Positions 1 through 5,972 are shown, counted from the first letter of the stretch. The stretch is DNA of 13,756 nucleotides from a virus (IMGVR_UViG_2874945390_000001:1-13756), one strand, 5' to 3'. Program-made: numbers and translations. The notes: a model not told the origin generated them from the sequence alone.

Positions 1-300
1 TTACCGCCGTAAGTGCTCCGGCTTCCTCCACTGGTAAGTATTTTTCGCGCTCTCCCTCCGTTGTTGAGAACGGCGACGATATGCCAGCAACTCAAGGACT
101 CTTGTTCGTATGTTGCGCATATCCACGCCGTTAAGCTCAATACCGTCACGGCGCATCACCTCAGCCACCACACGCGCGTAATTTTCAGCGGTGACGCTGT
201 CCGGCTGCGTGGCCACCTGTTTGCCTGTTGCCTGACAGATTCCGGTAATACGGCGGATTACTTTCAGTAGTTCGGCGTCGGTCATGGTTATGGTTTCCAT
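1..300 (-). CDS. Hypothetical protein, partial (C-terminus beyond window start); first gene downstream of the cos site, so possibly packaging-related
   Basis: ORF is open to the window edge. The ATG at 298-300 has no obvious RBS, but the internal ATG at 283-285 (MTDAELLK...) follows GGAAAC. Position after cosN/cosB matches where lambda places Nu1, but I see no recognisable Nu1 motif. Confidence 0.45.
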   Translation of the reverse strand: METITMTDAELLKVIRRITGICQATGKQVATQPDSVTAENYARVVAEVMRRDGIELNGVDMRNIRTRVLELLAYRRRSQQRRESAKNTYQWRKPEHLRR

Positions 301-454
301 AGTGATGGGGGAACAATTTCTGTAATCTGCGAAGCTGGCGATCGGTCAGACTCAAATGCCTGGCAACTTCAGTCTGAGTAGCCACTGTTCACCTCGCCCA
401 AAAATCTCCCCTCATGCGTTTTAAACATGCATCTTGCGAACAACTTTATGAAAC

Positions 455-640
455 GCGGCATATATGTCCGGTTTGAGTGTTTAATTTTTGCGCATGTCCG
501 GTTCGCAGAAAGCGCATTTCTATATTTTTCAAATGGTTAACCTTCAGAGAAACCGGACATGGTTTCCGAAAAATTTTCATAAATAGTGAAATTCTGCGCC
601 GCTCCCGCCCCGTGGCAGGCCACCCCACCGGAAGGACCCG
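455..640 (-). other. Lambda-type cos site: cosN-like core (about 595-615) plus cosB-like array of three 10-bp repeats and an IHF-like site
   Basis: Minus strand reads ACGGGGCGGGAGCGGCGCAGAATTTCACTATTTATGAAAATTTTTCGG. It aligns without gaps to the lambda left end ACG|GGGCGGCGACCTCGCGGGTTTTCGCTATTTATGAAAATTTTCCGG, with 17 consecutive identical nt (CTATTTATGAAAATTTT). ATGTCCGGTT occurs at 463-472 and 494-503, and inverted (AACCGGACAT) at 551-560. TTCAAATGGTTAA (521-533) resembles the IHF consensus WATCAANNNNTTR. Confidence 0.7.
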
Positions 641-641
641 C

Positions 642-672
642 AAAAAAAAGCCGGATTTCTCCGGCCTTTTCT
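642..672 (-). terminator. Rho-independent terminator ending the late (capsid) operon; partly bidirectional
   Basis: Hairpin GCCGGA-TTTC-TCCGGC (650-665) flanked by A8 (642-649) and CTTTTCT (666-672). On the minus strand the hairpin is followed by U8, directly after the stop of the 672..1085 ORF. Confidence 0.75.
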
Positions 673-1085
673 CAGATGGTTTTCAGTATGCGATCGATTT
701 CGCCGTCATCACCCTGATATCTGCCATCGTATGCCATGCCAGGGCTTACGGCCTGCGGGCTGTGCATGTCCATAAAGTTTTCAAAGGCTGCGGTAAGCTC
801 CGGCGCAACCTTCGGGCGTTCCTGCTCTATGGTCATGTTCAGGATTTCCCGGGCATTATCGACGCTAATACATGGCACGTTTGCCATTGCACGTAACAGC
901 GGCTGATAGTCGTCAGATTCATGAAGCGCCATAATCGCATCAGTGCGCGGCTTGTCCTGCTCTTCCAGTTTGTTAAGTTGATATATAGCCTCGTAGGTTG
1001 ATAAACCTCTGTCCGCCATTGCCCGCGCTTCGGCTTTAAATTTACTCGCCAGCGGTAGCGCCATGATAGCTTCATTGATTGCCAT
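672..1085 (-). CDS. Hypothetical protein (137 aa), last gene of the late operon
   Basis: Intact ORF with a GGGGGA RBS-like stretch upstream of the ATG and a terminator immediately after the stop. No family recognised. Confidence 0.55.
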   Translation of the reverse strand: MAINEAIMALPLASKFKAEARAMADRGLSTYEAIYQLNKLEEQDKPRTDAIMALHESDDYQPLLRAMANVPCISVDNAREILNMTIEQERPKVAPELTAAFENFMDMHSPQAVSPGMAYDGRYQGDDGEIDRILKTI

Positions 1086-1097
1086 CGTTCCCCCTGC

Positions 1098-1445
1098 TTA
1101 TCGCACCAGTGGCTGAACGGATACGCCAGAACCCGCAAAAGCGGCGCATTTTTTCGCGTCGGTGTCGACGCTCTCGGGCCAGTTAACGGCGGCGATATTA
1201 AATATCCCCGTCTTGTAACACTGTGCTGATTTCTGCTTTGACGTGTCCACGGGGTACGCCGTCAGATAAACAGCCTTGCCAGATTCCTGACCATCCCACG
1301 CCTTAAACTCGCCATTGTCCGCCAGCATCAGCGGGGTAAATTCCTGAATAACGCCAGCATCAGCGGAAAAATGTACCAGCGTCGTGGCAACCTGCTGTGT
1401 GCCTGCATATAACTCAACATATGGAGTGCCCATAGAATCTCCCAT
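1098..1445 (-). CDS. Head decoration protein, lambda gpD-like
   Basis: 115 aa. Motifs TPLMLAD...KAWDG...YKTGIF...WPE...AKK.AAFAGSGVSV parallel lambda gpD (TPLMLDT...VAWDG...YKSGTF...WPE...KKRTAFAGTAISIV). The ATG overlaps the capsid gene stop (TAATG). Confidence 0.85.
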   Translation of the reverse strand: MGDSMGTPYVELYAGTQQVATTLVHFSADAGVIQEFTPLMLADNGEFKAWDGQESGKAVYLTAYPVDTSKQKSAQCYKTGIFNIAAVNWPESVDTDAKKCAAFAGSGVSVQPLVR

Positions 1446-2500
1446 TAACCAATTTTCACAGTAACAAATTTGCGGATATCTGCCGGAACCGGCTGCGGTG
1501 CGCTGTGCGTCTGCACGTACTCAATCGCCGGATCGCCGCTCTCAATCCAGTTTTTCGGGTAGTACATGTTTTGCGTTGCGCCCGTTCTTACCGCTTCCGG
1601 ATCCATAATCGCGCCATAGGCCACCAGACCTTTATTGCTGGTGTTGCCCAGGACAAGCAAATCAGGCTCAAGGAAATATTTTTCGGTGCCGTCGCTGTCG
1701 GTGTATTTGCCGGAATAGACGATAAGGGCCAGATCACCCAGATAGCCTTTAAAGCTCACCACTTCGCCCAGGTTTTTACACGCCAGCTCTGCGGCGGATT
1801 CTGAACCACGGGAAAGATCGTACAGCTCGCGGAATTTTTTAAAGCTACGTAAGGTGCGCCATACGTCAGCGCCCATAATCATGACGTTGGCGGGGCAGCT
1901 GGCCTGTTCGGCGTATAGCTCGATGTCATCTGTCGGATCATGCGTCTCTTTATTCTGCTCAGACCATTTTTTTCCTGGCCCCTGATGGACAATGCAGTTT
2001 GCCGGCATATTCCAGTCGATTTCATAGCGTTCTATGCCTTCGCCTTCAATGATGTTTTTTCCGGTCATGACCGCATTCACTGCCAGCCATTCCACACGCG
2101 CTTTAATGGCGTTTATCTGGCGGCGCATGTTGCCAGTAATGAGGCGCATACGTCGCCAGGTGGGGTCGTTAAGCAGTGCCGGATCTTCTCCAGCCATGCG
2201 CATGATGGCTTTTGATGGATCGATTTCGTGTTTGGGTTTCATGTAGCCAGGGCGGATAGTGCTTGTTTCGTACCCTTTATCACGCTGAACCTGGCTACCC
2301 ACCACAGGCGAACAAAACGCCGACATGGTGACTTCTTCAATGTCCAGGGTATCCAGCATGACATCTTGTGTGTTGAAGGTTGCTACTTTCGGGAAAAACA
2401 GCGTGGTAAACAGCGGACTGAATTTAAATTCCGGGATATCCCCGCGATTCAGGTACGCGAAAAGCTGGTTAGTGTTAAGTGCCGTTGCTTTGTCTGCCAT
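1445..2500 (-). CDS. Major capsid protein, lambda gpE family (HK97 fold)
   Basis: 351 aa with collinear matches to lambda gpE: EFKFSPLF, PGYMKPKHE, DPTDDIE, RSFK, SRGS, SFKG, VYSG, VLGNT, YPKNW..GDPA. Its start overlaps the stop of the upstream 68-aa ORF (TAATG), with GGGGGTG upstream. Confidence 0.9.
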   Translation of the reverse strand: MADKATALNTNQLFAYLNRGDIPEFKFSPLFTTLFFPKVATFNTQDVMLDTLDIEEVTMSAFCSPVVGSQVQRDKGYETSTIRPGYMKPKHEIDPSKAIMRMAGEDPALLNDPTWRRMRLITGNMRRQINAIKARVEWLAVNAVMTGKNIIEGEGIERYEIDWNMPANCIVHQGPGKKWSEQNKETHDPTDDIELYAEQASCPANVMIMGADVWRTLRSFKKFRELYDLSRGSESAAELACKNLGEVVSFKGYLGDLALIVYSGKYTDSDGTEKYFLEPDLLVLGNTSNKGLVAYGAIMDPEAVRTGATQNMYYPKNWIESGDPAIEYVQTHSAPQPVPADIRKFVTVKIG

Positions 2501-2706
2501 TATTCACCCCCATGAGTCTGATTCATGCCAAGCGCCGCACGTAAATAGGCGCGTACCTGCCAGCCTGTTGACGGCTCAACCATCGCCAGCGGATCAAGTC
2601 CTGCCGCAATGCCCGCTTTTACGTTCTGCTGGTGGCGTTCCTTGAGCGCCTCCACGATATCGGGGCTTATGTAAACTGTCACCCCGCCTTTTTTCTCTTC
2701 TGTCAT
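2500..2706 (-). CDS. Hypothetical small protein (68 aa), first gene of the late operon, translationally coupled to the capsid gene
   Basis: ATG at 2704-2706 is preceded by GAGGA at about 9 nt. Stop overlaps the capsid ATG. No family recognised. Confidence 0.55.
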   Translation of the reverse strand: MTEEKKGGVTVYISPDIVEALKERHQQNVKAGIAAGLDPLAMVEPSTGWQVRAYLRAALGMNQTHGGE

Positions 2707-2943: not shown

Positions 2944-3354
2944 TCAGAACGGAATATCATCACCGTAGGGGTCATCGTCTCCCGCTGGTGGCTGATTACC
3001 CTGTGTGCCTGTGGTTTTGCGTCTGTTCCCGCCAGGGCGTGCCGCTCGGGCACTGATTACGCTGTCGGCAATAACCTGATAACCCTGCCGCGTTTCCCCG
3101 TTCTGTCCGGTCCACTGGCTGACCTGCATCGTGCCGGATACGCTGGCAACGTCGCCTTTTTGATGTTTAGCCAGGAAGTCGGCCTGCTTACCAAATGCCA
3201 TCACCGATAGCCATAACGTCGCCTGTCCGTCCTGTGCCTGGCTGCATGGCAGCGATACCGCCATACGCGCCAGCGTCATCGGTGTGCCCTTGCTGGTCTG
3301 TTTTACCTGCGGGTCGTCCACCAACCGTCCGTAAGCTGCTATCTGTGCTGTCAT
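2944..3354 (-). CDS. ssb: Single-stranded DNA-binding protein (SSB)
   Basis: 136 aa. OB-fold core (LWLSVMAFGKQADFL...KGD.VSVSG...W....G..R) parallels E. coli SSB, with a Gly/Gln-rich linker and the acidic C-terminal tail ...DDDPYGDDIPF (E. coli: DFDDDIPF). RBS GGAGAGGTGG upstream. Confidence 0.9.
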   Translation of the reverse strand: MTAQIAAYGRLVDDPQVKQTSKGTPMTLARMAVSLPCSQAQDGQATLWLSVMAFGKQADFLAKHQKGDVASVSGTMQVSQWTGQNGETRQGYQVIADSVISARAARPGGNRRKTTGTQGNQPPAGDDDPYGDDIPF

Positions 3355-3459
3355 GATTCCACCTCTCCGGTTTTAACGTAAGCGCCCCATCAGCGACGTC
3401 TTGTGAAAATTGTCCTGTCTGGCAACAATCGCGCCCATCTATATAGATGGACACGAACG

Positions 3460-4134
3460 ATGAATTCCCAGACAAAAAAAGATATTCCCTGCTTCCGTTC
3501 TTATTTGCCTGATGCCCTGCGTTTAAGATTTGAAGATAAACTGACCATCCGGGCCATCGCTCAGCGTCTGGGTCTCAGTCATTCCACAATACATACGCTT
3601 TTTCAGCGATTTCTTGCATCCGGTATCGCATGGCCATTGCCCGATTCAGTTTCATTCGCTCAACTTGACGCCATCCTTTATGCCAACAGAAAGAAGGAAT
3701 TAACAGAGCCTCAAATCAGAGAAGGCTCATGGCGAAAAGAACGGCGAACCAGCTATAGCCGTGAATTTAAGGTCCGTCTGGCTAAGCAGGCGTTACAGCC
3801 TGGGGCTGTTGTTGCCCGGATCGCCAGAGAACACGATATCAATAATAACCTGCTGTTTAAATGGAAAAGCCAGTACGAGGACGGCTTACTGAGCGATGAT
3901 GACATACAGGAATGCATGCCTGTCCCGGTGGCACTGACTGATACGCCGGAGCCGACCAGACCAGTTACAAATCCCTTCTGGCGTAACAAGCATGATGAGC
4001 GCCCTGAGGGGGCTCCCGGAAACGTCCCACGGTGCGAGCTGCATCTTAAATCAGGTGTGGTAAAACTGTTTGACCCTCTCACTCCGGAACTGTTACGGGC
4101 GCTAATCCGCGAAATGAAAGGGGGTATCCGATGA
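3460..4134 (+). CDS. tnpA: IS66-family accessory protein TnpA (orf1) with N-terminal HTH extension
   Basis: C-terminal half (SYSREFKVRLAKQALQPGAVVARIAREHDINNNLLFKWKSQYE) is IS66 Orf1-like. The start is ambiguous: GTG at 3403 or ATG at 3460. Confidence 0.7.
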   Translation: MNSQTKKDIPCFRSYLPDALRLRFEDKLTIRAIAQRLGLSHSTIHTLFQRFLASGIAWPLPDSVSFAQLDAILYANRKKELTEPQIREGSWRKERRTSYSREFKVRLAKQALQPGAVVARIAREHDINNNLLFKWKSQYEDGLLSDDDIQECMPVPVALTDTPEPTRPVTNPFWRNKHDERPEGAPGNVPRCELHLKSGVVKLFDPLTPELLRALIREMKGGIR

Positions 4135-4478
4135 TAACGCTGCCGACCGGTACCAAAATCTGGATCATCGCTGGCATCACAGATATGCGTTGTGGCTTCA
4201 ATGGCCTGGCTTCGAAGGTGCAGAACACGCTGAAAGATGACCCGTTCTCCGGGCATATCTTCGTCTTCCGGGGCCGCAGTGGCAAAATGGTGAAAATACT
4301 GTGGGCCGATCGTGACGGGTTATGCCTGTTCGCCAAACGCCTGGAACGGGGCCGCTTCGTCTGGCCGGTGACCCGGGAAGGGAAAGTGCACCTGACGCCA
4401 GCTCAGTTATCCATGCTACTGGAGGGGATCGCGTGGCAACATCCCAAACGGACAGAACGGCCTGGCATCCGGATATAA
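4131..4478 (+). CDS. tnpB: IS66-family TnpB (orf2)
   Basis: 115 aa. MITLPTGTKIWIIAGITDMRCGFNGLA...DPFSGHIFVFRGRSGKMVKILWADRDGLCLFAKRLERGRFVWP matches the conserved IS66 Orf2 signature. Start overlaps the tnpA stop. Confidence 0.9.
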   Translation: MITLPTGTKIWIIAGITDMRCGFNGLASKVQNTLKDDPFSGHIFVFRGRSGKMVKILWADRDGLCLFAKRLERGRFVWPVTREGKVHLTPAQLSMLLEGIAWQHPKRTERPGIRI

Positions 4479-4539
4479 CCCGTGATAAAACAAGGGAATG
4501 AACAATTAACTCCCCGATGATATTGAGCTGCTTAAAGCC

Positions 4540-5972
4540 ATGTTGCGTAAGCAACAGAGTCGGCTTCGACAGTATGCCTGTCAGGTCGCGGGCTATGAGC
4601 AGGAAATTGAACGGCTGAAAGCGCAACTCGACAGGTTGCGTCGTATGTTGTTCGGCCAGAGTTCAGAGAAAAAGCGTCATAAGCTTGAAAATCAGATCCG
4701 ACAGGCAGAAAAACGACTGTCGGAACTGGAAAACCGGCTGAACACAGCCAGAAATCTTCTGGAAGATGCATCGTCAGTCACAGATTCACCTGACACCAGT
4801 CCCCCGTCAGAAAACCCGATCGCCAGTAAGCCTGAATCCCCGGGACGAAAATCTTTACGAAAACCGCTGCCGGCAGAACTTCCCCGGGAGACACATCGCC
4901 TTCTGCCTGCTGAAACCAGTTGCCCGGCCTGTGGAGGTGTTCTGAAAGAAATGGGGGAAACAATCTCAGAGCAACTGGATATCATTAATACCGCCTTTAA
5001 AGTTATCGAAACCATACGTCCCAAACTGGCCTGTAGCCGGTGTGATGTCATCGTTCAGGCACCACTTCCCCCTAAACCGATCGAACGCGGTTATGCCAGT
5101 GCAGGGTTACTTGCACGGATCCTGGTCAGCAAATATATGGAACATATCCCTTTATATCGCCAGTCAGAAATATACGCGCGACAGGGCGTGGAGCTGAGCC
5201 GTAATACCATGGTGCGCTGGGTATCAGAAATGGCAGACAAACTCCGTCCTCTGTATATAGCGCTGAATGACTATGTTCTGGAGGCAGGAAAGGTGCACGC
5301 AGATGACACTCCGGTGAAAGTACTGGCCCCGGGGAACGGAAAGACGAAAACGGGTCGTCTGTGGGTATACGTCAGGGATGATCGTAATGCGGGTTCATCC
5401 CTGCCGGCAGCCGTCTGGTTCGCGTATTCGGCAGATCGCAAAGGAGAACATCCGCAGCTCCACCTGGCAAAGTATCAGGGCGTACTGCACTGCAGGCTGA
5501 TGCCTATGCAGGTTATAACGTACTGTACGAAACGGGCGGGGTGAAGGAAGCCGGGTGCCTGGCCCACGCCCGCCGAAAAATCCATGACGAGGATGTGCGC
5601 CGTCCGACAGAAATGACTCAGGAAGCGCTCAGACGGATAGCAGAGTTATACGACATAGAAGCGGAGATACGTGGCAGTCCGGCAGAGGAACGGCTTGCAG
5701 TCAGAAAAGCCAGAAGCGTCCAGTTGATGCAGTCGTTGTACGACTGGATACAGTTGCAGAGGAAAACGCTGTCGAAACATGCGGAGATGGCGAAGGCGTT
5801 CGACTATATCCTGAATCACTGGAATGCGCTGAACGAGTTCTGTCGTGACGGCTGGGTGGAAATAGACAACAACATCGGTGAAAACGCGTTACGATCGGTG
5901 GCGGTTGGAAGAAAAAATTATCTCTTTTTCGGCTCAGACAAGGGAGGAGAAAGTGCGGCGATCATCTACAGG
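4540..5972 (+). pseudogene. tnpC: IS66-family transposase TnpC (orf3), frameshifted and C-terminally truncated
   Basis: The two ORFs 4540..5544 and 5541..6038 are consecutive parts of one transposase. Tandem CTGCA-CTGCA at 5485-5494 shifts the frame; the other frame restores the conserved ...[22 protein letters not shown]... Similarity is lost after about 5970. Confidence 0.85.

What the first reader, a model, noticed from the sequence alone, without database searches (positions are those of the whole stretch)
455..640. Lambda-type cos site with R3-I1-R2-R1-like cosB architecture on a P4-type backbone
The minus strand carries a cosN-like sequence collinear with the lambda left end, including 17 identical nt (CTATTTATGAAAATTTT) at the same distance from the GGGCGG nick region. 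The implied 12-nt cohesive end, GGGCGGGAGCGG, differs from lambda's GGGCGGCGACCT. Downstream are three copies of ATGTCCGGTT, one inverted near cosN and two direct, with an IHF-like site between the first two. This mirrors lambda's terminase-small-subunit binding sites R3-I1-R2-R1. It implies the element is packaged as cos-ended DNA by a lambdoid terminase, with divergent cosB specificity that could reflect packaging redirection.
Basis: partly seen in the sequence, partly recalled or inferred. Interest (0 to 1): 0.8.

Follow-up and report, generated by a model that had tools for sequence, protein, structure and literature searches.

The report
Captured lambdoid cos site in PICI
The region is a genuine lambda-type DNA-packaging (cos) site on a known kind of E. 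coli phage satellite (an EcCICFT073-family PICI). It is an almost exact copy of the cos site of a common lambdoid prophage lineage rather than a satellite-specific redirected site, so it is a real but fairly ordinary feature.

Summary
On the minus strand, window 640→464 carries cosQ (GGGTCCT), a cosN-like 12-mer (GGGCGGGAGCGG, 610→599), the lambda-identical 17-mer at the same offset, three exact ATGTCCGGTT repeats, and a one-mismatch IHF-like site.

- The backbone is not P4. It is a PICI syntenic with EcCICFT073 (E-like capsid, D-like decoration, Nu3-like protein, P4-family primase, integrase).
- The cosB is not satellite-specific. Window 640→314 is 98.5% identical to the cos region of lambdoid prophages with Nu1/gpA terminase, including the variant cohesive end, all three repeats and the first 24 Nu1 codons.
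- The same repeat architecture precedes a full Nu1 plus TerL in at least 81 of 119 viral contigs.
- About 1,085 of 5,426 complete E. coli genomes carry at least 80% of the block.
- There is no rpp gene.

The most likely mechanism is direct mimicry of a helper's cos, not Rpp-type redirection.

All three complete genomes with this satellite type also carry the matching prophage. This copy is decayed: two IS insertions, a frameshifted integrase and a split primase.

The same cosB is the inverted "cos2" of EcCICFT073.

Verdict: a new member of a known kind, of modest interest.

The parts
642..666 (-). Intrinsic terminator-like hairpin (GGCCGGAGAAATCCGGC) plus a run of eight T. It closes the PICI late operon (capsid E-like, D-like, ORF137) just upstream of cos.
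   Evidence: Read directly from the sequence. The hairpin was also picked up by the scan. The same hairpin precedes cos in EcCICFT073 and in sister satellites.
633..639 (-). cosQ-like heptamer GGGTCCT, at -29 to -23 relative to the cohesive end (lambda: -30 to -24).
   Evidence: Invariant in all 8 aligned cos regions. Position compared with lambda. The assignment of cosQ to GGGTCCT rests on my own knowledge of the lambda literature.
599..610 (-). cosN core. The predicted 12-nt 5' cohesive end is GGGCGGGAGCGG.
   Evidence: Identity to other ends:
- 12/12 with the prophage cos in E. coli CFSAN029787
- 11/12 with phi458
- 8/12 with the annotated N15 sticky end
- 7/12 with lambda

Found in 8 of 119 viral contigs that carry this cosB type. 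Three of those are phages with Nu1 100% and TerL 98-100% identical to the CFSAN prophage. The ends have not been mapped experimentally.
563..598 (-). Conserved cosN-right/I2-like block (offsets 13-48), including the 17-mer CTATTTATGAAAATTTT (586->570).
   Evidence: Identity over offsets 13-48: 28/36 to lambda, 29/36 to phi80, 30/36 to the 21-type CFT073 prophage, 25/36 to N15, 14/36 to HK97.
551..560 (-). R3-equivalent repeat ATGTCCGGTT (offsets 51-60; the lambda R3 core is at 53-59).
527..539 (-). I1-position IHF-like site TAACCATTTGAAA within a conserved AT-rich block.
   Evidence: One mismatch to WATCAANNNNTTR. The position is analogous to lambda I1. It is statistically weak on its own.
494..503 (+). 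R2-equivalent repeat (ATGTCCGGTT on the + strand, so inverted relative to R3).
464..473 (+). R1-equivalent repeat, in the same orientation as R2 (unlike lambda R1).
314..385 (-). Stub of a phage terminase small-subunit gene. It comprises a GTG start plus 24 codons (VATQTEVARHLSLTDRQLRRLQKL), identical to the N-terminus of the Nu1 of PhiR12_1-type and CFSAN-type phages. The reading frame then degenerates.
   Evidence: (phrog_57 terminase small subunit, residues 1-23). RefSeq annotates the same 72 nt in a sister satellite as an incomplete CDS.
314..640 (-). The whole phage-derived cos cassette (cosQ to Nu1 codon 24).
   Evidence: 98.5% identical over all 327 nt to prophages in 8 complete E. coli genomes, where it lies under an annotated 'terminase small subunit'.
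1..300 (-). ORF99 (phrog_1561, function unknown). It is the conserved last gene of the PICI, homologous to the 93-aa gene after cos2 in EcCICFT073. It shows that cos is internal to the satellite.
672..2706 (-). PICI late genes upstream of cos:
- hyp68 (2706->2500)
- lambda E-like major capsid protein (2500->1445)
- D-like decoration protein (1445->1098)
- ORF137 (1085->672), which resembles the C-terminal (Nu3-like) part of head-protease/scaffold proteins
   Evidence: Pfam PF03864 at 3e-48 and PF02924 at 4e-18. phrog_29, phrog_49, phrog_1999 and phrog_53. Same gene order as c1499-c1501 of EcCICFT073 (PMC6092414).

Best explanation
Window 640->314 (minus strand) is a complete lambda-type cos site: cosQ, cosN, an I2-like block, and a cosB made of three R repeats with an IHF-like site.

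It sits at the end of the late operon of an EcCICFT073-family PICI. It was captured by recombination from a lambdoid helper-type prophage, or is kept identical to one.

Proposed mechanism (inferred):
1. The helper's unmodified small terminase subunit is a Nu1 whose N-terminal domain begins VATQTEVARHLSLTDRQLRRLQKL. It binds the ATGTCCGGTT repeats.
2. IHF bends the DNA between R3 and R2.
3. The gpA-type large subunit nicks cosN, giving 12-nt 5' ends GGGCGGGAGCGG.
4. Concatemeric PICI DNA is packaged in the direction cosN -> cosB -> ORF99 -> int ... -> capsid genes -> cosQ/cosN.

No Rpp-type redirection is involved.

Shown here: the sequence anatomy, near-identity to prophage cos sites, co-occurrence with the cognate Nu1/TerL, absence of rpp, and membership of the PICI family.

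Inferred: actual cleavage, TerS and IHF binding, and packaging.

This copy of the PICI is decayed and is probably no longer mobile, although the cos cassette itself is intact.
For: 1. Phage identity of the site.
- 98.5% identity over 327 nt to a prophage that has Rz upstream and Nu1, gpA, W and portal downstream.
- 81% identity over 183 nt to phages PhiR12_1 to PhiR12_5, between Rz and Nu1.

2. The cognate terminase is lambda-type. TerL matches PF05876 and PF20454. Nu1 matches PF07471 only over its C-terminal part, so its DNA-binding domain is divergent.

3. Distribution of the exact R3-R2-R1 architecture.
- It occurs in at least 119 viral contigs, and at least 81 of them have a full Nu1 plus TerL just downstream.
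- 94 Nu1 genes share the same first 28 residues.
- 1,085 of 5,426 complete E. coli genomes hold at least 80% of the block. In the rows listed it lies under 'terminase small subunit'.

4. The repeats are invariant while 26 of 135 neighbouring columns vary (P = 6.5e-4).

5. The site is inside a PICI.
- Synteny with EcCICFT073 and sister elements.
- Six loci share the architecture terminator-cos-Nu1 stub-ORF99.

6. There is no rpp in the window. The CFT073 144-aa gene used as query is a true Rpp (PDB 6HLK, 5e-31).

7. Co-residence. All three complete genomes with this satellite type (H46-H48) also carry the 98.2%-identical prophage cos elsewhere in the chromosome (H75, H76, H78). One IMG/VR genome holds both a satellite and a phage with the GGGCGGGAGCGG end (L041/L043 and L044).

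8. Precedent.
- EcCICFT073 is packaged by the terminases of lambda, phi80 and phage 4 through its cos sites (PMC6092414, PMC6739421).
- An HE-PICI shares a 258-bp cos region with its helper (PMC10111431).
Against: - No DNA ends have been mapped for any phage or satellite with this cos, and no binding data exist for the repeats.
- The IHF match is at chance level.
- The cohesive end differs from lambda at 5 of 12 positions. It is seen with only one TerL lineage (three phages), so the helper range may be narrow.
- This copy is decayed: the integrase is frameshifted, the primase is split by an IS3-family element, and there is an IS66-family insertion. The site may therefore be a relic here.
- Co-residence of satellite and prophage could reflect clonal relatedness of the strains, or local gene conversion, rather than a helper relationship.
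Confidence: 0.75

Rival explanations
1. The cos has a satellite-specific cosB, recognised only after a satellite protein (Rpp-like) reprogrammes the helper TerS, so that packaging is redirected to the satellite.
For: This is the published mechanism for cos1 of the same PICI family (PMC6739421, PMC9026076). The cosB here is unlike that of lambda, phi80, the 21-type prophage or N15.
Against: - The cosB is identical to that of many bona fide prophages that encode their own full Nu1.
- There is no rpp homologue in the window.
- The cassette still carries 24 codons of the phage Nu1.
- Rpp-type PICI cos sites are reported to lack R repeats (PMC9026076).
Confidence: 0.05
2. An inert recombination scar. 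The cassette is a leftover of an exchange between a prophage and the PICI, and it is not used for packaging in any element of this type.
For: - The Nu1 stub is a pseudogene fragment.
- The window copy and the O121 copy are riddled with IS elements and pseudogenes.
- This type is rare: 3 of 5,426 complete genomes.
Against: - The cassette occupies exactly the position of the functional cos in EcCICFT073.
- No other cos is present in the window, so a mobile ancestor needed this one.
- Relatives without the IS insertions exist, such as the 10.4-kb contig L073.
- All functional subsites are intact and 98.5% identical to the prophage copy.
Confidence: 0.15
3. The site is not part of the satellite. 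It is the edge of a degraded lambdoid prophage lying next to the PICI.
For: A Nu1 gene fragment follows the site.
Against: - The next gene (ORF99) is the conserved terminal PICI gene, also present in EcCICFT073 after cos2.
- In sister loci the chromosomal gene yejO follows, with no other phage genes.
Confidence: 0.03
4. The site is a P2/P4-type (19-nt) cos or an HK97-type (HNH-dependent) cos.
For: The primase and integrase are P4-like.
Against:
- The HK97 left end shows no similarity: 2/12 and 14/36.
Confidence: 0.01

Closest known systems
cos region of lambdoid prophages/phages of the 'VATQTEVARHL' Nu1 class (E. coli CFSAN029787 prophage; Escherichia phages PhiR12_1 to PhiR12_5)
   Same: - Same layout: cosQ, cosN, I2 block, three ATGTCCGGTT repeats, AT-rich I1 block, Nu1 start.
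- 98.5% identity (CFSAN prophage) and 81% identity (PhiR12_1).
- The CFSAN type has the same GGGCGGGAGCGG end.
   Different: - In the phages the site is followed by a full 169-aa Nu1 and by gpA. In the window only 24 codons remain.
- The PhiR12 type has the lambda end GGGCGGCGACCT.
EcCICFT073 cos2 (E. coli PICI; Fillol-Salom 2018, 2019)
   Same: - Same PICI family and same position at the end of the late zone.
- Same cosB: three ATGTCCGGTT repeats, with 14/14 and 72/88 identity.
   Different: - In EcCICFT073 this site is inverted, has the lambda cohesive end, and is paired with a direct cos1 plus rppA. The window has one direct cos and no rpp.
- Calling the repeat-bearing site 'cos2' is my inference. 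It rests on the papers' statements that cos1 is the Rpp-dependent site laid out like cos-terS.
EcCICFT073 cos1 plus Rpp (redirected packaging)
   Same: cosQ, cosN and the I2 block are similar (26/36). The position after the same terminator is the same.
   Different: cos1 has no R repeats and depends on Rpp-TerS heterodimers (PMC6739421, PMC9026076). The window has R repeats and no Rpp.
Phage lambda cos (also phi80, 21, N15)
   Same: - cosQ heptamer present.
- GGGCGG start of the 12-nt end.
- 17-nt identical I2 segment at the same offset.
- R3 at about the same distance from cosN (offset 51-60 against 53-59).
- The order R3-I1-R2-R1 is the same.
   Different: - 5 of the 12 end bases differ.
- The R sequence is unrelated (ATGTCCGGTT against CGTTTCC).
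- R1 orientation is reversed.
- R2-R1 spacing is 30 bp against about 41 bp.
- BLAST (distant mode, E <= 1e-5) did not list lambda among the 30 of 32 phage hits shown.
Other satellites that copy their helper's cos: HE-PICI 11capE (258 bp shared with helper 50icd, PMC10111431); SaPIbov5 and P4 (from my own knowledge)
   Same: Same strategy: the satellite carries the helper's own packaging site and lacks terminase genes.
   Different: Different helper families and sequences. In this window the captured block includes the 5' end of the helper terS.

Membership tests
Lambda-type cos site (cosQ-cosN-cosB, Nu1/gpA terminase) | cosN: a GGGCGG... 12-nt staggered nick site flanked by the conserved ACG / CGC context | tested here: met
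   CCACG|GGGCGGGAGCGG|CGCAG at 615->594. The 12-mer is 7/12 identical to lambda, 8/12 to the annotated N15 sticky end, and 12/12 to a prophage with a gpA terminase.
Lambda-type cos site (cosQ-cosN-cosB, Nu1/gpA terminase) | cosQ heptamer about 25-30 bp upstream of the nick | tested here: met
   GGGTCCT at -29 to -23 (lambda: -30 to -24). It is invariant in 8 aligned cos regions.
Lambda-type cos site (cosQ-cosN-cosB, Nu1/gpA terminase) | Conserved cosN-right/I2 segment between cosN and R3 | tested here: met
   28/36 identical to lambda, including 17 consecutive bases at the same offset.
Lambda-type cos site (cosQ-cosN-cosB, Nu1/gpA terminase) | cosB with three R repeats in the order R3-I1-R2-R1, with R2 opposite to R3 and R1 | tested here: inconclusive
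   There are three exact 10-bp repeats, with R3 at the lambda position and R2 inverted. However, R1 has the orientation of R2, and the spacing is 30 bp rather than about 41 bp (PMC9026076).
Lambda-type cos site (cosQ-cosN-cosB, Nu1/gpA terminase) | IHF site (I1) between R3 and R2 | tested here: inconclusive
   A one-mismatch consensus match at 527-539. Such matches are not enriched in the window.
Lambda-type cos site (cosQ-cosN-cosB, Nu1/gpA terminase) | The cognate terminase belongs to the Nu1/gpA families | tested here: met
   Tested in the prophage that carries the identical site: PF07471, PF05876 and PF20454. The window itself encodes no terminase.
Lambda-type cos site (cosQ-cosN-cosB, Nu1/gpA terminase) | Cleavage yields 12-nt 5' cohesive ends at this position | not testable with these tools
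   Needs end mapping of virion DNA.
EcCICFT073-family Gram-negative PICI | Gene order: integrase, regulatory zone, P4-family primase/SSB replication zone, late zone with capsid E and decoration D homologues, cos at the end. No terminase, tail or lysis genes. Size about 10-11 kb. | tested here: met
   tblastn against a sister element, and Pfam/PHROG scans. Synteny with CFT073. The relative lacking both IS insertions is a contig of at least 10.4 kb.
EcCICFT073-family Gram-negative PICI | Helper-induced excision, replication and transfer | not testable with these tools
   In addition, this copy has a frameshifted integrase and a disrupted primase.
Rpp-dependent PICI cos (cos1 type) | An rpp gene immediately downstream of cos | tested here: not met
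   tblastn of RppA against the window: best E = 0.47. ORF99 and ORF137 have no PDB Rpp hit. The query is a true Rpp.
Rpp-dependent PICI cos (cos1 type) | A cosB without R repeats, unlike any helper cosB | tested here: not met
   Three R repeats are present, identical to those of phages.
P4-like satellite | P2-type 19-nt cos and sid/psu/delta capsid-size genes | tested here: not met
No such genes are annotated in sister elements or found among the ORFs scanned in the window.
HK97-type cos (HNH-assisted) | Similarity to the HK97 end region | tested here: not met
   2/12 and 14/36 identity, which is background level.

The most novel reading that the evidence does not exclude
EcCICFT073-family PICIs may treat cos as an exchangeable cassette. 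The evidence has three parts.

1. The family holds cos sites captured from at least three lambdoid lineages:
- the repeat-bearing 'VATQTEVARHL' Nu1 class, which would also explain the so-far unexplained cos2 of EcCICFT073 as a second helper-range site that needs no Rpp
- a phi458-type cos in the O121 element
- the Rpp-type cos1

2. Different junctions lie inside the phage terS: 24 codons in the window, and 9 codons fused in frame to the Rpp C-terminus in L050.

3. Where two inverted cos sites flank a segment, that segment is found in both orientations, with breakpoints confined to about 25 bp centred on cosN. This is what terminase cutting at both sites followed by re-annealing of the flipped fragment would give. 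If so, it would be a natural footprint of in vivo cos cleavage.
Probability: 0.3. Interest if true: 0.55.

Novelty: new member of a known kind. Interest (0 to 1): 0.35.

Why it matters
It shows that, within the best-studied Gram-negative PICI family, Rpp-mediated redirection is not the only packaging strategy. Some members simply carry a near-exact copy of a helper's complete cos, including a stub of the helper terS.

It also identifies the repeat-bearing cosB as the packaging site of a very common E. coli prophage class, present in about a fifth of complete genomes. The lambda/21/N15 cos literature I could search does not describe this class.

That in turn gives a concrete, testable explanation for the second cos site (cos2) of EcCICFT073.

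Practically, it predicts which prophages can mobilise these islands, and it defines a compact cassette of about 190 bp for cosmid-type transfer by that phage class.

Tried and rejected
- P2/P4 19-nt cos: no match with up to 3 mismatches.
- HK97 left end: background similarity only.
- Rpp in the window: tblastn negative. PDB sequence searches with ORF137 and ORF99 found nothing.
- A second cos in the window, as in EcCICFT073: none found. The only other partial match, GGGCGGCGACC at 6913 (minus strand) inside the primase gene, lacks all flanking cos features.
- IHF consensus as statistical evidence: not enriched.
- Literature search for the repeat and for the variant cohesive end as text strings returned only unrelated primer sequences. 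A search for 'PhiR12' found no paper.
- PDB sequence search with the CFSAN-type Nu1 did not reach the lambda Nu1 DNA-binding domain. That the N-terminus is a winged helix-turn-helix is therefore inferred only from its position and from the PHROG and Pfam family hits.
- The terminator scan reported the hairpin only on the + strand. The minus-strand hairpin plus T-run is read directly.

Full report
**1. What is in the sequence**

Reading the minus strand from 668 to 300 gives the following elements in order.
- The stop codon of a 137-aa ORF.
- A GC-rich hairpin followed by eight T (666->642).
- GGGTCCT (639->633).
- CCACG-GGGCGGGAGCGG-CGCAG, with the 12-mer at 610->599.
- A block containing CTATTTATGAAAATTTT (586->570).
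- ATGTCCGGTT (560->551).
- An AT-rich stretch containing TAACCATTTGAAA (539->527).
- Two inverted copies of the repeat, AACCGGACAT (503->494 and 473->464).
- A GTG at 385 that opens 24 codons, VATQTEVARHLSLTDRQLRRLQKL. The frame then decays.
- A 99-aa ORF (300->1).

The 10-mer is not a chance feature. With up to one mismatch it has 4 hits in the window against 0.82 expected. Only 1 of 200 shuffles reaches that number, and the three exact copies lie within 97 bp.

**2. Comparison with lambda and its relatives**

I anchored the alignment at the first base of the cohesive end. Against lambda:
- 7/12 identical in the end itself
- 28/36 at offsets 13-48, including the 17-mer at identical offsets 25-41
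- 1/14 at offsets 49-62
- 24/88 at offsets 63-150

Resemblance to lambda therefore ends exactly where lambda R3 begins.

The same pattern holds for phi80 (29/36, then background), the phage 21-type prophage of CFT073 (30/36) and N15 (25/36). HK97 is at background throughout.

The annotated, experimentally known N15 sticky end (GGGCGGCGTCCG) shows that the last bases of the 12-mer vary naturally among gpA-type terminases.

The repeats occupy lambda-like positions. R3 is at offsets 51-60, against the lambda core at 53-59. R2 is at 108-117, against 114-120. The third repeat, however, has the orientation of R2 rather than R3, and it lies 30 bp from R2 rather than about 41 bp. Published descriptions of lambda, phi80, 21 and Gifsy-1 have R2 opposite to both R3 and R1 (PMC9026076).

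The IHF-like site has one mismatch and sits in the right place. Such matches are not enriched in the window (6 found, 11.9 expected).

**3. The backbone is a PICI, not P4**

Pfam and PHROG scans gave these assignments.

| ORF (minus strand) | Assignment | Score |
|---|---|---|
| 2500->1445 | lambda E-type major capsid protein (PF03864) | 3e-48 |
| 1445->1098 | gpD-type decoration protein (PF02924) | 4e-18 |
| 1085->672 (137 aa) | resembles the C-terminal, Nu3-like part of head protease/scaffold proteins (phrog_53) | 1e-9 |

The scans also identify an SSB, a D5_N/DUF5906-type primase and a tyrosine integrase.

The best E. coli matches are satellites at the tRNA-Pro/yejM-yejO locus with the same gene order.

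The CFT073 chromosome shows that this is the gene order of EcCICFT073: PerC, hyp68, capsid (c1499), decoration (c1500), hyp137, a 144-aa gene, and a 93-aa gene next to phoQ. The 144-aa protein is Rpp (PDB 6HLK RppC, 5e-31).

EcCICFT073 is the prototype Gram-negative PICI. It is mobilised through its cos sites by lambda, phi80 and the resident phage 4 (PMC6092414, PMC6739421).

The window has no P2/P4-type cos.

**4. The cos cassette is a phage cos, not a satellite-specific one**

Three lines of evidence point the same way.

(a) Window 640->314 is 98.5% identical over all 327 nt to prophages in eight complete E. coli genomes. In CFSAN029787 the block lies between the lysis genes and a full set of Nu1 (169 aa), gpA (642 aa), W and portal genes. 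The prophage copy has the same GGGCGGGAGCGG, the same three repeats, and the same 24 codons as the start of its Nu1.
- Its TerL matches the gpA ATPase and nuclease families.
- Its Nu1 matches Phage_Nu1 only over the C-terminal half, so the DNA-binding domain is divergent.

(b) Sequenced phages PhiR12_1 to PhiR12_5 are 81% identical over 183 nt, including all three repeats, between Rz and Nu1. They carry the lambda end GGGCGGCGACCT.

(c) I scanned IMG/VR for the exact pattern ATGTCCGGTT-N40-55-AACCGGACAT-N15-25-AACCGGACAT.
- At least 81 loci are followed by a full Nu1 plus TerL.
- 94 Nu1 genes share the same first 28 residues.
- Cohesive ends: 103 loci have the lambda end, 8 have GGGCGGGAGCGG and 1 has GGGCGGCAGACG.
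- The variant end goes with a distinct TerL lineage. TerL is 98-100% identical to the CFSAN protein there, against 90-93% for lambda-end phages (only three phages).

In complete E. coli genomes, 1,085 of 5,426 hold at least 80% of the block. In all 40 listed rows it lies under an annotated terminase small subunit.

Among relatives found by BLAST, not by the repeat pattern, 26 of 135 columns vary and none lies in the 30 repeat positions (P = 6.5e-4).

**5. No redirection machinery**

A tblastn search of RppA against the window finds nothing (best E = 0.47). The two ORFs next to cos have no PDB relatives.

I classified the ORF137-to-ORF99 interval in 27 family members.

| Type | Loci | Layout | Interval length |
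|---|---|---|---|
| A | 11, including EcCICFT073 | direct repeat-less cos, rpp, then an inverted repeat-bearing cos | 875-876 bp |
| B | 6 | two inverted cos sites, no rpp, repeats in direct orientation | 662-666 bp |
| C | 3 | as B, but with the repeats in inverted orientation | 662 bp |
| D | 6, including the window | one direct repeat-bearing cos plus the 24-codon Nu1 stub | 373-374 bp |
| E | 1 (L050) | hybrid (see section 8) | 762 bp |

In this family, then, the window represents the plain strategy of carrying the helper's own cos.

That strategy is known from an HE-PICI that shares 258 bp at 90% identity with its helper at the cos position (PMC10111431). From my own knowledge it is also known from SaPIbov5 and P4.

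**6. Helper pairing**

The three complete genomes that hold the window-type satellite are H46, H47 and H48 (93.4-93.6% identity over window 1-700). They are among the eight genomes that carry the 98%-identical prophage cos, at a different chromosomal position (H76, H78, H75).

One IMG/VR genome likewise contains both a satellite and a phage with the GGGCGGGAGCGG end.

These strains may be related, so this is suggestive rather than statistical proof. It fits either a helper relationship or local acquisition of the cassette from the resident prophage.

**7. State of this copy**

I compared the window with a relative that lacks both IS insertions (L073, a 10.4-kb contig, 99-100% identical in the flanking genes). 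Relative to it the window has:
- an IS66-family insertion (about 3108-5971)
- an IS3-family insertion (7912-9175) that splits the primase at codon 49
- a frameshift in the integrase (about 12863-12914)
- no perC

The cos cassette itself is intact, but this element is probably not mobile.

**8. Things seen on the way**

- By elimination, the repeat-bearing cosB is the inverted 'cos2' of EcCICFT073. The published work reports that no phage cosB or R repeats could be recognised in the PICI cos sites, and that cos2 is dispensable for transfer by lambda and phi80 (PMC6092414, PMC6739421, PMC9026076). The present data suggest that cos2 is the cosB of a different, very common helper class.
- Types B and C are exact inversion isomers. 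Their flanks are 65/65 and 61/61 identical. The 512 bp between the two inverted 12-mers is reverse-complemented (510/512). The breakpoints are confined to about 25 bp centred on cosN.
- L050 fuses 9 Nu1 codons in frame to the C-terminal part of Rpp.
- The O121 satellite carries an additional phi458-type cos after ssb.
- L093 joins PICI capsid genes and cos to a full Nu1 plus TerL.

**9. Verdict**

It is wrong about the backbone and about redirection.

This is a new member of a known kind: a PICI cos site that mimics its helper. It is of modest interest. Its main value is the link to a common, undescribed lambdoid packaging-specificity class and to EcCICFT073 cos2.

Noticed in passing
L008 (E. 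coli CFT073) 3150-3330; compare window 464-610: The second, inverted cos site of EcCICFT073 carries the same three ATGTCCGGTT repeats as the window and as PhiR12-type phages. The published papers state that no phage cosB or R repeats could be found in the PICI cos sites. This suggests cos2 serves a different, Rpp-independent helper class.
   Followed up: partly
L068 versus L014 (IMG/VR loci), interval between ORF137 and ORF99; also L002 3590-4150: The same satellite lineage exists as two exact inversion isomers. Flanks are 100% identical. The 512 bp between two inverted GGGCGGCGACCT 12-mers is reverse-complemented (510/512). Breakpoints lie within about 25 bp centred on cosN. This is compatible with terminase cutting both sites and the fragment re-annealing flipped, or with very short-homology recombination.
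   Followed up: partly
L050 (IMG/VR locus), downstream of its cos: A hybrid ORF: the first 9 codons of the phage Nu1 are fused in frame to the C-terminal part of Rpp (VATQTEVAR|LISSESDEYSSEETEHRF...). It is a second, independent junction between phage cos/terS and a PICI, besides the 24-codon stub in the window.
   Followed up: no
L007 (E. coli O121 201805972) about 9620-9760: The sister satellite has an extra cos of the phi458 type (GGGCGGGAGCGG followed by a different cosB) right after the ssb terminator. It therefore carries cos sites of two phage lineages in direct orientation. The window has only the terminator at the equivalent place (2700-2950).
   Followed up: partly
L093 (IMG/VR locus) 3470-4614: PICI capsid gene and ORF137, then cos (end GGGCGTCGACCT), then a full-length Nu1 and the start of TerL. 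It could be an elongated PICI that captured terminase genes, a PICI-prophage recombinant, or an assembly chimera.
   Followed up: no
window 3108-5971, 7912-9175 and 12863-12914: This copy of the PICI is decayed. It has an IS66-family insertion between ssb and the primase. An IS3-family insertion splits the primase at codon 49, apparently with a 3-bp target duplication. The integrase is frameshifted, and perC is missing relative to sister elements.
   Followed up: yes
window 672-1085 (minus strand): The 137-aa ORF after the decoration gene matches the C-terminal (Nu3/scaffold-like) part of head-maturation protease families (phrog_53, 1e-9). The PICI therefore encodes an E-like, D-like and Nu3-like trio. 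The papers read here name only the capsid and decoration homologues.
   Followed up: no
IMG/VR phage loci L044, L046, L047 versus the other Nu1+TerL loci: Cohesive-end variants track TerL lineages. Phages with the lambda end have TerL 90-93% identical to the CFSAN protein. Those with GGGCGGGAGCGG have 98-100%. Those with GGGCGGCAGACG have about 83%. This hints at cosN-TerL co-variation, but the numbers are small.
   Followed up: partly
window 411-450 (minus strand) and L004 (phi458) about 3170-3210: A segment of about 30 nt (AAAGTTGTTCGCAAGATGCATGTTTAAAAC) just upstream of the Nu1 start is shared with phi458. That phage has a different TerS (DUF1441) and a different cosB. This shows a fine-scale mosaic around terS starts.
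   Followed up: no
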